IMG/VR virus record: IMGVR_UViG_2703718873_000025 | Length of the DNA: 18,324 bases | Direction: 5' to 3' (one strand) | Origin: a virus | Lineage: Duplodnaviria > Heunggongvirae > Uroviricota > Caudoviricetes | Made by a program: the position numbers | Shown: piece after piece, positions 6,001 to 9,000 of the stretch | Position numbering within the stretch: position 1 is the first letter of the stretch | Layout of the letters: each line of letters starts with the position of its first letter

Positions 6001-9000
6001 ATGTATTCAATGGCATGAATCACATCAATGACATCACCGCCCTGGATAAGGCCATTTCCCGCACTGGCACTGACATCCAGCATTTCAATACGGAATACAT
6101 CCTTCACCTGCGCAACATCCTCACCAGTACTGTTTTTACATACAGTATTACTTTTGAAGTCTGAGGTAAAGAGATCTGCAATATCAACACCTAAGCTCCT
6201 GGCAATATTACTCAGGGCTTGTTCAGTGAATTGTTTCTGCTTACCTGTTTCCAGGCGTGAGATATTCGCCGCATCCACTCCTATTGCTTCAGCGAGATCG
6301 GCGATTTTCATGTTCTTCGCCTGGCGAAGTTGTCTGACTCGATTTCCTATGTTCATGCGTTTATTACATTTCTTTATTGCGCGTTAAGCAAATCAACTTG
6401 CGCAAAATATTTGCGTGAAATAATATGCTTATCACGCAATATGTGGAGGTTATATGCAATCACCATTACGAAATGTGCGTAAGGCGCACGGATTTACTTT
6501 GCAGCATGTTGCTGCGGGTGTTCAGGTTAATCCAGCGACGCTGAGTCGTATTGAGAGACTGGAACAAATTCCATCTATCGATCTGGCAGAGCGTCTGGCC
6601 AATTTTTTTAAGGGAGAAATCAGCGAAATGCAGATTCTCTATCCTGCTCGCTTTCAATCTAGTCAAAACCGGAATGAGTTAAAACCACAGGAAAAGGAGG
6701 TAAGCCGTGGGTAAGCATCACTGGAAAGTGGAAAAACAGCCTGAGTGGTACGTGAAAGCGGTCAGAAAAACTATCGCGGCGTTGCCGGGTGGTTACGCTG
6801 AAGCAGCTGAGTGGCTGGATGTAACAGAGAACGCTTTATTCAATCGCCTTCGTGCCGATGGCGATCAGATTTTCCCGCTGGGATGGGCAATGATTTTACA
6901 GCGCGCGGCTGGCACTCACTACATTGCGGATGCTGTCGCACAGTCTGCTGGTGGGGTGTTTGTATCGCTTCCTGACATTGAGGAAGTAGAGAACGCCGAT
7001 ATAAACCAGCGCCTGCTGGAAGTCATCGAACAGATCGGGAGTTACTCAAAGCAGATTCGTTCGGCAATCGAAGATGGGGTAGTGGAGCCACACGAGCAGA
7101 CAGCAATGAATGATGAGTTGTATCTGTCAATTTCGAAGCTCCAGGAGCATGCGGCACTGGTCTACAAAATTTTCTGCGCTCCAGAAAAGAGTGACGCCCG
7201 CGAGTGTGCAGCTCCGGGCGTCGTGGCGTTTTGTGTCTGTGGAGAAACTAACGCATGAACAGTTTAACGGCAAATAACCGTTTGTCGCAACAGCTGGTGG
7301 TCAGTGTCGCTGCACACCTGTTGTTACGGCATGAATGCAGATTACCAAATCACCTGGCTGTAAGTAACCACAGAGAACTTTACCTGACTGTGGGGGGCGA
7401 GTTGTGCAGGAACTTAACCGCTGGTTTCGTGACGGAAGAGGGCTTTATGTTCATGTTATTCGTTGGGAACCAGAAACACAGCGCGTTATCTATCTTCGCA
7501 AAGACTACCCGCATGAGTGCTTTAGTCCTTTGTGGAAATTCAGGCGTGATTTTGTTGAGTGTGAAGGACCACCAGCACATTGATTCTGCCATTCCGGGAC
7601 GTTACACTGTTCAGGCACCTTATAAAGCGGGTGCCGGGATTGGCGTCCTGGAATTGCATACGGCGACAATTGGCGCGTTAGCGTCTTTTTTGTTGCTACA
7701 ACTCAGCTATACCCAAATTATGGTGGGCTGGGTGGGGGCACCGAAAGGTGCGCCGGTTTCCGTATGCGCCGGTTACGCCAACCCTGCTCAGTTCACCACC
7801 AGCGAAATTGGCGTTTCCGGTGGTGGAAGTTATCCATTGCATACGGAGGCTGCCATCATGGCTACGATCCCTGCCTTAGTACAACCTGAACTTTGCATTA
7901 TTGCAGACAAAGTTGTTACTTCTTCTCTGGCTGTTGCTAGTTATTTCGGCAAACAACACAAAAATGTCATTCAAAAAATTGCGTCTCTTGAATGCTCTGC
8001 CGAATTTACTGAGCTGAATTTTCAGCTCAGTGAGTACATCGACGCATCAGGCCGCAAACTACCTTGCTATCAAATAACCCGCGACGGCTTTGCGTTTCTT
8101 GCTATGGGTTTCACGGGTAAACGTGCTGCCCAGTTCAAAGAGGCATATATCAATGCCTTTAACCAGATGGAGAAACAGCTTTCAAAACCCCCTGTACCGA
8201 GCGACGTTGCACATAACGCCAGCGTTCTCTATTCCTACATTTCATCAATTCATCAGGTCTGGCTGCAGCAGCTTTATCCTATGTTGGCAAAAGCCGAATC
8301 TCCGCTGGCTGTTAGCTTGTATGACTATATTAATGATGCTTCGGCGCTGGCCTGCCTCATAAATTTGTCGCTGAACCCTTCAGAGGTAAGGGGGCGCAAA
8401 TGATCCGGAATATTTTCAAACGGTTTACCAATCAGACTTTCCGTTGTCCTCGTCCGGGTCAGTGGTATACCACACCTGCAGGGCATGTTCTACGTGTTAG
8501 CCTGGTTGACCGTGAATGTCAGAAGGTGATTTGTGAACCGCTGGGCCGTAATTACCGCGTCAGTATGCCGCTTATAGCCTTTCGCTCCGGAAAAAACATG
8601 AAGCATCTCGGAGGTGCAGCATGAGTATGGAGCTGATGGTTAAAGCGATGAAAATTCGAGTGGGTAATCCATTGCGAAAACTGGTTCTGATCAAGCTGGC
8701 TGATAATGCCAGCGATCAGGGTGAGTGCTGGCCCAGCTACCAGCATATTGCTGACCAGTGCGAGATTAGCAAACGTTCTGTGATGAATCATATTGCGGCC
8801 CTTTGTGAGTCCGGGCTGGTAAAAAAAGTCACCCGGAAAGGTGAAAAAGGTAACTCAAGTAATATCTATCTCCTTCATCTTGATGGTGCAGGAGATTCAC
8901 TAGGGGGTAGTGCAAATAATTCACTATCTGGTGCAGCAAATTCACCAGGTAGTGCAGGAGTTGCACCAGGGGGTAGTGCAGGAGATTCACCCAGAACCAG

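What the first reader, a model, noticed from the sequence alone, without database searches (positions are those of the whole stretch)
7259..7857. About 600 bp between the CII-like gene and rha with no convincing long ORF, a candidate 59-codon GTG-start gene and an 11-bp direct repeat
The supplied long ORF 7255-8403 would make Rha 382 aa, and its ATG overlaps the CII-like stop as ATGA, but the first 200 residues are compositionally implausible and a strong RBS-ATG at 7858 starts the recognisable Rha domain. Within the gap, frame 0 encodes a protein-like 59 aa ORF (7404-7583), and ATTGCATACGG occurs twice (7661-7671 and 7836-7846), the second just upstream of the rha RBS. The gap may hold a small gene plus regulatory repeats, or a structured RNA.
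Basis: seen in the sequence. Interest (0 to 1): 0.4.

Follow-up and report, generated by a model that had tools for sequence, protein, structure and literature searches.

The report
P4-type antisense-RNA switch before rha

Summary
The gap 7259-7857 is full. (1) The 59-codon ORF 7404-7583 is a real gene: Pfam DUF4222, pN/pS 0.11-0.14. (2) 7580-7849 is a P4/P1-type antisense-RNA immunity cassette. It has a promoter-like site (7580-7608), an IsrK/seqA-like RNA with an intrinsic terminator (7615-7691), a C4/CI-like RNA (7716-7803), and target sites a2/b2 (7808-7849) that cover the GGAGG of the rha ATG at 7858. Its first copy is at 7653-7663, not 7661-7671. Loop and targets covary across 14 phages and also match in P4. 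(3) The 382-codon ORF is probably not an artefact. Its first 201 codons show no protein-level constraint, yet the frame has no stop in 25 distinct cassette variants (78/78 loci), while the other frames carry 0-7 stops. It starts ATGA-coupled to cII and runs in frame into rha, as P4 eta does into kil. Translation from the early transcript probably overrides the RNA block; this step is inferred. Verdict: a new member of a known kind, unannotated as RNA in the two RefSeq records inspected. The Pfam 'Ash' domain here is a translation of the RNA genes.

The parts
6707..7258 (+). cII-like gene (Pfam Phage_CP76; RefSeq 'YmfL'). Its TGA overlaps ATG 7255 as ATGA. Included as context and as the upstream coupling partner.
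   Evidence: pN/pS 0.06-0.27.
7255..8403 (+). Stop-free 382-codon ORF, analogous to P4 eta. It starts ATGA-coupled to cII, runs out of frame across the DUF4222 gene, then through the promoter, both RNA genes and a2/b2, and continues in frame into rha. Codons 1-201 show no protein-level constraint. Residues 117-212 give the Pfam Phage_ASH hit.
7404..7583 (+). DUF4222 gene, 59 aa, GTG start after a GGGGGG purine run. A real protein-coding gene, with a predicted small SH3/KOW/Tudor-like barrel.
   Evidence: Pfam PF13973 51.1 bits against cut-off 27; phrog_1343 125.7 bits; pN/pS 0.11-0.14, with 14/20 and 29/43 differences at third positions; 33 homologs; model pLDDT 85.
7580..7608 (+). Promoter-like site of the cassette: -35 TTGATT (7580-7585, overlapping the DUF4222 stop TGA 7581-7583), a 17-nt spacer, and -10 TACACT (7603-7608). 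The inferred start is near 7615.
   Evidence: Read. It occupies the position of TTGACG-17-TATATT in VT2-Sakai, P27 and TL-2011c. Homology with ASU11 begins at the -35. It matches only 8/12 of the consensus, so the scan did not list it.
7615..7691 (+). IsrK / P4 seqA-like small RNA.
   Evidence: Rfam RF01394 61.2 bits against GA 50; terminator; a1/b1.
7716..7803 (+). C4 antisense RNA, homologous to P4 CI RNA and P1/P7 c4. It has a 17-bp closing stem and two hairpins. b' (CCGUAUGC 7760-7767) lies in the loop of hairpin 2, and a' (ACGCCAA 7775-7781) lies in the single strand after it. ATG 7720, in its 5' stem, is in frame with rha.
   Evidence: Rfam RF01695 80.7 bits against GA 45; fold -45 kcal/mol, z -3.9; stems 100% paired with covariation; ATG frame.
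7808..7849 (+). b2 can pair with b' through GGAGG 7845-7849, the Shine-Dalgarno of rha.
   Evidence: (I2, I14).
7858..8403 (+). rha, a Rha-family regulator of the antirepressor (Bro/Ant) network; 181 aa from the SD-preceded ATG, which is homologous to the start of P4 kil.
   Evidence: Pfam Phage_pRha 112 bits; TIGR02681; PHROG Rha and anti-repressor families; pN/pS 0.24-0.46; shared motif EAAIMAT / GGAGGCTGCCATCATGGCTAC with P4.

Best explanation
The interval contains a real 59-aa gene (DUF4222, 7404-7583) followed by a P4/P1-type antisense-RNA immunity cassette that gates the Rha-family regulator.

Proposed working:
- A promoter inside the long ORF (7580-7608) starts transcription near 7615.
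- Most transcripts stop at the intrinsic terminator (7672-7691) and give a 77-nt IsrK/seqA-like RNA that carries sites a1 and b1.
- Read-through transcripts contain the C4/CI-like RNA (7716-7803).
- The exposed C4 segments a' (7775-7781) and b' (7760-7767) pair with a1/b1 upstream and with a2/b2 (7808-7849) downstream.
- b2 runs into the GGAGG of the rha ATG at 7858. C4 therefore blocks rha translation and, as in P4 and P1, probably causes premature termination before the replication genes.
- Transcripts from the early promoter through cro and cII instead carry ribosomes that pass from cII (ATGA overlap at 7255) into a 382-codon stop-free frame. That frame crosses the whole cassette and continues in frame into rha. 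As with eta in P4, this translation would stop the RNA structures and pairings from forming, so early transcription escapes the RNA immunity and yields an N-terminally extended Rha.

Shown here:
- the identity and coordinates of all the parts;
- the covarying complementarity between C4 and its four sites;
- the coding status of DUF4222;
- the absence of protein-level constraint in the long frame, combined with its stop-free maintenance.

Inferred by homology: promoter activity, RNA processing, repression, termination, and translation of the long ORF.
For: RNA families:
- Rfam hits above the gathering scores: C4 80.7 bits against 45, isrK 61.2 against 50.
- The same isrK+C4 pair sits upstream of Ant/Rha-type genes in all 15 phage loci fetched, and in P4.

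Sites and pairing:
- An intrinsic terminator lies at 7672-7691.
- The composite a-b site occurs 3 times against 0 expected.
- Covariation over 14 phages: a1-a' 6/7 pairs compensatory, b1-b' 7/8, b'-b2 7/8, a'-a2 5/5. Between 93 and 99% of cells are paired, against 30-49% in slid controls, and at most 1 of 500 shuffles reaches any measure.
- The cognate C4 loop is the best or tied partner of its own IsrK in 17/17 loci, with 13 different b' loops and 7 a' types.
- b2 abuts or overlaps the SD in most loci. In the window the duplex can extend to 11-12 bp through GGAGG.

DUF4222:
- Pfam 51 bits; pN/pS 0.11-0.14.

Long ORF:
- pN/pS is 0.7-1.2 in every frame over 7615-7857.
- Frame 0 has 0 stops in 10 phage variants, against 13 + 13 distinct stop positions in the other two frames.
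- Frame 0 also has 0 stops in 25 distinct cassette sequences from 78/78 IMG/VR loci. Cassette length varies by 3 nt (243 or 246).
- The frame also stays open across the out-of-frame DUF4222 gene; P is 0.02-0.04 per lineage by synonymous resampling.

P4 precedent:
- P4 has the same ATGA coupling to its upstream regulator gene, the same read-through frame, and the same GGAGGCTGCCATCATGGCTAC start region for the nested kil.
- P4 eta gives the same Pfam Phage_ASH hit.
- The P4 mechanism is summarised in PMC10111431.
- Lambdoid prophages with IsrK-C4 systems are noted in PMC3632133.
- Gifsy-1 isrK-orf45-anrP has been studied experimentally (PMC4825925).
Against: - There are no expression data for this locus.
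- The promoter matches only 8/12 of the sigma-70 consensus, and the scan did not call it.
- In Gifsy-1, the one lambdoid example studied, short IsrK activates the antirepressor in trans. Whether its C4-like RNA (STnc1160) represses was left open. The sign of regulation here could therefore differ from P4 and P1.
- Translating the long frame means ribosomes cross a conserved gene (DUF4222) in another frame, which is unusual.
- The long frame is also open across DUF4222 in e14, SfII and Klebsiella phages that lack the cassette. That part of its openness therefore cannot be explained by an anti-immunity role.
- In more distant phages (VT2-Sakai, P27, Tyrion, APSE-2) the cassette has stops in all frames, so the read-through ORF is not needed for the cassette to work.
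Confidence: 0.8

Rival explanations
1. The 382-aa ORF encodes an ordinary two-domain 'Ash-Rha' protein, as current Pfam, PHROG and GenBank/RefSeq annotation implies. On this view the N-terminal Ash domain is a functional protein domain and the RNA-family hits are incidental.
For: Pfam Phage_ASH 63.8 bits on residues 117-212. PHROGs 821, 3960, 995 and 6928 cover the region. The long CDS is annotated in PhiR47_1, SfV, Stx2a_1447, ST64B, mEp460, cdtI and RefSeq genomes. The frame is always open.
Against: No frame over 7615-7857 shows a coding substitution pattern: pN/pS is 0.7-1.2 and differences are even over codon positions. The neighbouring rha gives 0.24-0.46 (window-type comparisons; 0.54 against the most divergent locus). 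Variation is explained by RNA pairing, with compensatory changes in four intermolecular helices and in the C4 stems. In VT2-Sakai, P27, Tyrion and APSE-2 the same cassette lies in unannotated DNA with 2-4 stops in that frame. Residues 50-110 overlap the truly constrained DUF4222 frame.
Confidence: 0.07
2. The cassette works as described for Gifsy-1, as an activator switch. The read-through transcript is translationally silent by intramolecular folding. Short IsrK acts in trans to open it, and ribosomes enter at the ATG inside C4 (7720) and run on to give Rha. The main role of the RNA is then to trigger Rha and induction under certain conditions, not to repress it.
For: IsrK homolog with terminator. 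ATG 7720 lies 106 nt after the IsrK start, matching orf45 A107 in PMC4825925. The whole 7615-7870 RNA folds strongly, at -115 kcal/mol with z -4.9. The experimental work was done on a lambdoid prophage.
Against: Here the ATG 7720 frame has no stop overlapping the rha start (AUGA in Gifsy-1) but is fused to rha. No SD precedes ATG 7720. The b2/SD overlap and the three-way covariation are what the P1/P4 repression model predicts. The two models are not exclusive, because they describe the same cassette.
Confidence: 0.3
3. The stop-free state of frame 7255-7857 is a by-product of descent and base composition, not of selection. Only DUF4222, the two RNAs and the 181-aa Rha are functional.
For: The variants are related, so they are not independent samples. 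G+C-rich, structure-constrained RNA has few stop triplets: the window itself has only 1 stop in each of the other two frames. The cassette functions with stops in distant phages.
Against: Other variants carry up to 5 and 7 stops in the other frames, at 26 distinct positions, and none in frame 0. The 3-nt length difference keeps the frame. Openness across DUF4222 has P 0.02-0.04 in each of several lineages whose synonymous sites are nearly saturated against each other, pS 0.7-0.76. P4 eta is a precedent.
Confidence: 0.15

Closest known systems
Satellite phage P4 immunity region (PLE - seqA - CI RNA - seqC - kil, with the overlapping eta ORF)
   Same: Order and spacing logic of promoter, IsrK/seqA, C4/CI and downstream target. 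Two complementary sites on each side of the RNA. The b2-type site lies next to AGGAGG, with an identical GGAGGCTGCCATCATGGCTAC start region. A long ORF is ATGA-coupled to the upstream regulator gene, reads through everything and is in frame with the gene that starts after seqC. Both give a Pfam Phage_ASH hit.
   Different: The downstream gene is a 181-aa Rha-family regulator, not the 65-aa Kil. The host element is a lambdoid (SfV/PhiR47-like) prophage with a protein CI repressor. The upstream partner is cII rather than the AlpA/Vis-like orf88. The ORF starts 360 nt before the RNA start (75 nt in P4) and crosses an out-of-frame DUF4222 gene. The spacer between the terminator and C4 is 24 nt against about 108 nt. 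The a and b specificities differ.
Phage P1/P7 immI operon (c4 antisense RNA - icd - ant)
   Same: The C4 family RNA is made from the same transcript as its targets. The a'/b' segments pair with a1/b1 upstream and a2/b2 downstream, and b2 covers a ribosome-binding site. The regulated product belongs to the antirepressor network. Specificity differs between related phages through matched changes in loop and targets, as in P1/P7 heteroimmunity (established knowledge, with the Rfam C4 and c4-a1b1 descriptions).
   Different: No icd-like leader ORF separates b2 from the regulated gene; b2 sits directly on the rha SD. An IsrK-type terminator follows a1/b1. The Rfam c4-a1b1 model scores below its threshold here (21.4 against 46.7).
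Salmonella Gifsy-1 isrK-orf45-anrP locus (PMC4825925)
   Same: A lambdoid prophage with an IsrK RNA that has its own promoter and a leaky terminator, a C4-like processed RNA (STnc1160), an ATG about 106 nt after the IsrK start, and a downstream antirepressor-like gene.
   Different: In Gifsy-1 orf45 ends with AUGA on the anrP start. Here that frame is fused to rha and extends upstream to cII. The Gifsy-1 cassette lies after antQ, not between cII and the replication genes.
e14 / SfII ymfL-ymfM region
   Same: cII-like ymfL is followed by an ATGA-coupled ORF beginning MNSLT, which overlaps an out-of-frame DUF4222 ORF. The left half of the window's 'gap' (7255-7583) is this locus.
   Different: e14 and SfII have no RNA cassette or rha. 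The coupled frame stops after 112 codons, just before the replication gene. The window's first 50 codons have diverged from the YmfM N-terminal part after about 12 residues.

Membership tests
C4 antisense RNA (Rfam RF01695; P1/P7 c4, P4 CI RNA) | Match to the covariance model above the curated gathering score | tested here: met
   80.7 bits against 45, full-length 1-87, at 7716-7803 on the + strand.
C4 antisense RNA (Rfam RF01695; P1/P7 c4, P4 CI RNA) | Long closing stem enclosing two hairpins, supported by covariation | tested here: met
   27 pairs are 100% paired in 14 phages. Hairpin 1 has 5/5 pairs with compensatory changes and the closing stem 5/17. MFE -45 kcal/mol, z -3.9.
C4 antisense RNA (Rfam RF01695; P1/P7 c4, P4 CI RNA) | Two exposed segments (a', b') complementary to paired target sites both upstream (a1, b1) and downstream (a2, b2) on the same strand | tested here: met
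   Exact 7- and 8-nt complements at 7640-7646 and 7656-7663, and at 7808-7814 and 7839-7846. These covary across phages.
C4 antisense RNA (Rfam RF01695; P1/P7 c4, P4 CI RNA) | b2 overlaps the ribosome-binding site of the first downstream ORF, which belongs to or leads to an antirepressor | tested here: met
   b2 ends in GGAGG 7845-7849, 8 nt before ATG 7858. The product matches Phage_pRha and anti-repressor PHROGs.
C4 antisense RNA (Rfam RF01695; P1/P7 c4, P4 CI RNA) | Mature RNA is processed from a longer precursor (RNase P; also PNPase in P4) and represses in trans | not testable with these tools
   Needs RNA mapping and genetics.
IsrK / P4 seqA (Rfam RF01394) and c4-a1b1 (RF03163) | Match to the covariance model above the gathering score | tested here: met
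   isrK 61.2 bits against 50 at 7615-7691. The related c4-a1b1 model reaches only 21.4 against 46.7 at 7602-7654, so membership is claimed for RF01394 only.
IsrK / P4 seqA (Rfam RF01394) and c4-a1b1 (RF03163) | Own promoter immediately upstream and Rho-independent terminator at the 3' end | tested here: inconclusive
   The terminator was found at 7672-7691. The promoter TTGATT-17-TACACT sits at the conserved position but matches only 8/12 of the consensus and was not called by the scan.
P4 eta/kil nested-gene arrangement | Long ORF that starts upstream of the internal promoter and is translationally coupled to the preceding regulator gene | tested here: met
   ATGA at 7255-7258. P4 has GCATGATGATG at the orf88/eta junction.
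P4 eta/kil nested-gene arrangement | ORF reads through seqA, CI and seqC and is in frame with the gene that starts at the SD-ATG after seqC | tested here: met
   7255-8403 is one frame and ATG 7858 is in it. The P4 ORF 8168-8812(-) contains kil. Both hit Pfam Phage_ASH.
P4 eta/kil nested-gene arrangement | Translation of the long ORF from the upstream promoter prevents immunity-dependent termination | not testable with these tools
   There is only indirect support: the frame is stop-free in 25 cassette variants without amino-acid constraint. The P4 mechanism is taken from PMC10111431 and from recollection of Forti et al. 1999, which is not held in the library.
Gifsy-1 isrK-orf45-anrP | Short upstream ORF starting in the C4 region whose stop overlaps the antirepressor start codon (AUGA) | tested here: not met
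   The frame from ATG 7720 has no stop before rha and continues to 8401.
DUF4222 (Pfam PF13973) | HMM match above the gathering score, with a coding substitution pattern in that frame | tested here: met
   51.1 bits against 27. pN/pS 0.11-0.14 against ST64B, sal3 and Stx1_132418 homologs. pN/pS 0.07-0.10 between e14/SfII and Klebsiella homologs.

The most novel reading that the evidence does not exclude
The frame that begins at the cII stop (ATGA, 7255) may be a 'translation-only' ORF. It would be kept free of stops by selection across an out-of-frame conserved gene (DUF4222), an internal promoter, two small-RNA genes and their targets, while its amino-acid sequence drifts freely. Ribosomes arriving from cII would then act as a moving anti-termination and anti-immunity device that decides whether early transcripts reach rha and the replication genes.

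Two corollaries follow. First, the Pfam 'Ash' domain and several PHROG 'transcriptional regulator' families describe translated RNA genes, not a protein domain. Second, in e14 the annotated cell-division inhibitor YmfM (SfiC) may be wrongly attributed in part, because only its N-terminal half and the embedded DUF4222 frame evolve like proteins.
Probability: 0.4. Interest if true: 0.6.

Novelty: new member of a known kind. Interest (0 to 1): 0.35.

Why it matters
A match to this interval is present in 2976 of 5426 complete E. coli genomes searched. Annotation is inconsistent. Some records carry a 382-aa 'Rha'. Others carry DUF4222 plus a shorter Rha. The two RefSeq records inspected have no RNA features.

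Recognising the interval as a P4-type RNA immunity cassette does three things:
- It explains why 'Rha/Ash' proteins of Stx and other lambdoid phages have an 'Ash domain' with no assigned function (PMC8951638).
- It predicts many mutually specific RNA immunity types. At least 7 occur next to a 97-99% identical flank, and they may govern cross-talk between co-resident prophages and satellites.
- It gives a directly testable model for how early transcription overrides an RNA repressor by translating through it.

It also cautions against using PF10554 as a protein marker.

Tried and rejected
- Sigma-70 scan of 7150-8000: no promoter at 9/12 or better. The promoter call rests on positional homology only.
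- 7259-7403 as a structured RNA: fold z-score -0.25; rejected. Its coding status is unresolved, with pN/pS 0.38-0.50 in two frames and few sites.
- Minus-strand 70-aa ORF 7380-7592: no Pfam hit. The variable sites fall on its first codon positions; rejected.
- The 11-mer repeat as evidence on its own: not beyond chance.
- NCBIfam and a PDB sequence search for DUF4222: no significant match.
- Foldseek of the DUF4222 model against the PDB: only non-significant SH3/KOW/Tudor-like matches, best E 0.047. No function can be assigned; the NusG/Spt5 KOW resemblance is only a lead.
- The primary P4 papers (PMC94026, PMC176756) are not held. The P4 mechanism is cited second-hand and from memory.
- MAFFT put a2 out of register in the two rows with the 3-nt insertion. 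This lowers the a'-a2 counts slightly; a separate register-free search was used instead.
- 'DUF4222 is functionally tied to the cassette': rejected. e14, SfII and Klebsiella phages have DUF4222 without the cassette, and ASU11 and TL-2011c have the cassette without DUF4222.
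Full report
**What is at the coordinates**

The window is a lambdoid prophage 99.4% identical to Escherichia phage PhiR47_1 over 7200-7900. It is related to SfV, Ayreon, 2H10, cdtI, mEp460, ST64B and many Stx phages. The local gene order is:
- cI (5664-6356, minus strand);
- cro (6454-6714);
- a CP76-type cII, 'YmfL' in RefSeq (6707-7258);
- the interval in question;
- the Rha domain;
- a 74-aa ORF;
- an O-like replication gene.

ATG 7255 overlaps the cII stop as ATGA and opens a 382-codon ORF. The Pfam Rha domain covers only residues 222-307 of it. 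ATG 7858 has GGAGG 8 nt upstream. The 59-codon GTG ORF is at 7404-7583. ATTGCATACGG occurs twice, at 7653-7663 and 7836-7846.

**The structured RNAs**

A scan against Rfam gives two hits above the curated thresholds inside the 'gap'. The isrK hit is at 7615-7691 (61.2 bits, threshold 50). The C4 antisense RNA hit is at 7716-7803 (80.7 bits, threshold 45). The isrK element ends in an intrinsic terminator, with its stem at 7672-7685 and T-run at 7686-7691. C4 folds as predicted: a 17-bp closing stem and two hairpins, -45 kcal/mol, z -3.9. All 15 phage loci fetched by similarity carry the same isrK+C4 pair just upstream of an Ant-, Rha- or other antirepressor-type gene. So does satellite phage P4, where the two elements are seqA and the CI immunity RNA (PMC3632133).

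**What the repeat is**

TTGGCGT (7640-7646 and 7808-7814) is the exact complement of ACGCCAA (7775-7781), the single strand after that hairpin (I2, I8, I14, I20). The composite TTGGCGT-N(5-35)-GCATACGG occurs three times, twice on the + strand and once on the - strand inside C4. It occurs in none of 200 shuffles.

This is the a1/b1 - a'/b' - a2/b2 layout of P1/P7 c4 and P4 CI. Loop and targets change together across phages. There are 13 different b' loops and 7 a' types, each matched by its own upstream and downstream sites. On a 14-phage alignment:

| Helix | Pairs with changes on both sides |
|---|---|
| a1-a' | 6 of 7 |
| b1-b' | 7 of 8 |
| b'-b2 | 7 of 8 |
| a'-a2 | 5 of 5 (aligned part) |

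Between 93 and 99% of cells are paired, against 30-49% when the partner is slid by 1-3 columns. At most 1 of 500 shuffles reaches any of the observed values. The cognate C4 loop is the best or tied partner of its own IsrK in 17 of 17 loci. In the window the b'-b2 duplex can extend to 11-12 bp, with G-U pairs, through GGAGG 7845-7849, the Shine-Dalgarno of ATG 7858.

The 11-mer alone was not beyond chance. Its meaning comes from this covariation.

**The promoter**

Immediately upstream of 7615 lies TTGATT (7580-7585), a 17-nt spacer and TACACT (7603-7608). In VT2-Sakai, P27 and TL-2011c the same position reads TTGACG-17-TATATT. In ASU11, which lacks DUF4222, homology with the window begins at the -35. 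The match to the consensus is only 8/12, and the scan did not list it. Promoter activity is therefore inferred.

**The small gene**

The 59-aa ORF matches Pfam DUF4222 (51.1 bits, cut-off 27) and phrog_1343 (125.7 bits). Against the ST64B/sal3 and Stx1_132418 homologs (89% and 76% identity), 14/20 (13/19 for sal3) and 29/43 differences fall on its third codon positions, and pN/pS is 0.11-0.14. The overlapping long-ORF frame gives 1.5-3.3. The gene is therefore real.

It has 33 homolog clusters, all enterobacterial and none with a functional name. The predicted structure (pLDDT 85) is a small SH3/KOW/Tudor-like barrel with no significant PDB match. It is not tied to the RNA cassette. e14, SfII and Klebsiella phages have the gene without the cassette, and ASU11 and TL-2011c have the cassette without the gene.

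**The long ORF**

Over the RNA cassette (7615-7857) no reading frame shows a coding pattern: pN/pS is 0.7-1.2 and differences are spread evenly over codon positions. rha (7858-8400) gives 0.24-0.46 and cII gives 0.06-0.27. The Pfam Phage_ASH hit on residues 117-212 (nt 7603-7890) coincides with the cassette, so the 'domain' is a translation of conserved RNA genes.

The frame is nevertheless kept open:
- In 10 phage variants that are 60-84% identical over the cassette, the rha frame has no stop between the IsrK start and the rha ATG. The other two frames carry 0-5 and 1-7 stops, at 13 + 13 distinct positions.
- In 78 of 78 IMG/VR loci retrieved through DUF4222 alone, the frame is open from the ATGA at cII to the rha ATG. 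Those loci hold 25 distinct cassette sequences.
- Cassette length differs by exactly 3 nt (243 or 246).
- The frame also stays open across the out-of-frame DUF4222 gene. Resampling synonymous codons gives P = 0.02-0.04 per lineage. This holds in lineages whose synonymous sites are near saturation against each other.
- In distant phages where the cassette stands alone (VT2-Sakai, P27, Tyrion, APSE-2), that frame has 2-4 stops.

**The precedent**

P4 has the same design. A 199-codon ORF (eta) starts with an ATG that overlaps the TGA of the upstream regulator gene orf88 (GCATGATGATG). It reads through seqA, CI and seqC. It is in frame with the 65-codon kil, whose start region GGAGGCTGCCATCATGGCTAC is identical to the window's. 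Eta gives the same Phage_ASH hit, at 82 bits.

PMC10111431 summarises Forti et al. 1999 as follows:
- The promoter inside eta is constitutive.
- Its transcript is terminated through the CI/seqA RNA interactions and is processed to give CI.
- Kil is a truncated Eta made on occasional read-through.
- Full-length Eta is translated only from the upstream promoter, coupled to the upstream gene.
- Eta translation prevents termination.

The ST64B record already notes similarity of its long ORF to 'P4 ORF199'.

**Most likely mechanism**

In the lysogen the phage CI repressor keeps the early promoter off. The internal promoter makes IsrK-like RNA and, by read-through, C4. C4 pairs with a1/b1 and a2/b2, covers the rha Shine-Dalgarno, and probably provokes termination before the replication genes.

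After induction or infection, early transcripts bring ribosomes from cII into the stop-free frame. These ribosomes travel through the terminator hairpin, C4 and the target sites, so the RNA block cannot form. Rha, with an N-terminal extension, and the downstream genes are then expressed.

The following are shown here: the parts, the covarying complementarity, the overlap of b2 with the SD, the coding status of DUF4222 and rha, and the unconstrained but stop-free long frame. The following are inferred: promoter activity, processing, repression, termination, and translation of the long frame.

The Gifsy-1 study shows that short IsrK can also act positively, opening the silent read-through transcript so that an ORF starting in the C4 region is translated and couples to the antirepressor. 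The window has the corresponding ATG at 7720, but that frame is fused to rha rather than ending in AUGA. The two pictures describe the same cassette and may both apply.

**Comparison and novelty**

IsrK-C4 systems in lambdoid Salmonella prophages were noted in 2013. One was dissected in 2016. CI/seqA homologs inside 'Bro network' genes of satellites were noted in 2023. This locus is therefore a new member of a known kind.

What is less appreciated:
- The literature on Stx phages treats 'Rha/Ash' as a two-domain protein whose Ash domain has unknown function.
- PF10554 has been used as a protein marker for P4-like satellites.
- RefSeq annotates the interval either as a 382-aa Rha or as DUF4222 plus a 296-aa Rha, with no RNA features in the two records inspected.
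- A match to the interval occurs in 2976 of 5426 complete E. coli genomes.

**Side finding**

The left half of the interval (7255-7583) is homologous to e14/SfII ymfM. In e14 the annotated 112-aa 'cell division inhibitor YmfM' begins with the same ATGA coupling to ymfL. Its C-terminal half overlaps a DUF4222 ORF in another frame (69.5 bits). Between e14/SfII and Klebsiella phages the overlap evolves as DUF4222 (pN/pS 0.07-0.10) and not as YmfM (about 5.5). The first 58 YmfM codons are moderately constrained (0.48). The experiment that defined ymfM cloned the whole ORF, and no frame-specific mutants were found in the text.

Noticed in passing
L102:2323-2681 (E. coli K-12 e14 ymfM); window 7255-7583: The annotated 112-aa cell-division inhibitor YmfM overlaps, out of frame, a DUF4222 ORF (Pfam 69.5 bits). 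In the overlap only the DUF4222 frame is constrained (pN/pS 0.07-0.10, against about 5.5 for the YmfM frame). Even so, the YmfM frame stays open to a conserved stop in e14, SfII and two Klebsiella phages. The published filamentation experiment cloned the whole ORF, so which frame is active remains open.
   Followed up: partly
window 7603-7890; L016 (P4) 8168-8812 minus strand: Pfam PF10554 'Phage_ASH' and PHROGs 821, 3960, 995 and 6928 match the translation of the IsrK-C4-target region, which shows no protein-level constraint. PF10554 has been used as the 'epsilon' marker for P4-like satellites (PMC8628076) and is described as a domain of unknown function in Stx phages (PMC8951638).
   Followed up: partly
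window 15757-15965: Full-length match to the Rfam sRNA STnc100 (183.6 bits, threshold 47) in the late region of the prophage.
   Followed up: no
window 14176-14252 and 14266-14342: Two adjacent tRNA-Arg genes (anticodons TCG and TCT) carried by the prophage.
   Followed up: no
L017-L096 (IMG/VR), positions about 1712-1960 of each locus: Next to a 97-99% identical DUF4222 flank, the RNA cassette occurs in at least 7 specificity types, only 60-84% identical to one another. The a and b specificities are reassorted: L073 has the b type of ST64B with the a type of the window. The cassette behaves as a swappable immunity module with boundaries at the -35 box and about 18 nt into the downstream gene.
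   Followed up: partly
L002 (SfV) 3159-3392; 32 of 78 IMG/VR loci: In SfV-type phages the same cassette and start codon lead into a 77-aa product instead of a 181-185-aa Rha, so the regulated gene is exchangeable.
   Followed up: no
L097 and L098 (RefSeq E. coli chromosomes): PGAP annotates the identical interval in two incompatible ways, as a 382-aa Rha or as DUF4222 plus a 296-aa Rha starting inside DUF4222. Neither record has an ncRNA feature, although both RNAs pass the Rfam thresholds.
   Followed up: yes
L010, L011 (VT2-Sakai, P27) about 1440-1730: In Stx phages of the Traversvirus type the same cassette sits in the nin region after ninE. It has a near-consensus promoter (TTGACG-17-TATATT), stops in all frames, and an Ant-type or hypothetical gene downstream.
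   Followed up: partly
L015 (TL-2011c) 2361-2444: Rfam sRNA-Xcc1 match (79.6 bits, threshold 53) just downstream of the Rha-family gene of this Stx phage.
   Followed up: no
window 7404-7583: The DUF4222 model (pLDDT 85) is a small five-stranded barrel. Its nearest, non-significant structural neighbours include KOW domains of Spt5/NusG, Tudor domains and SH3 domains.
   Followed up: partly
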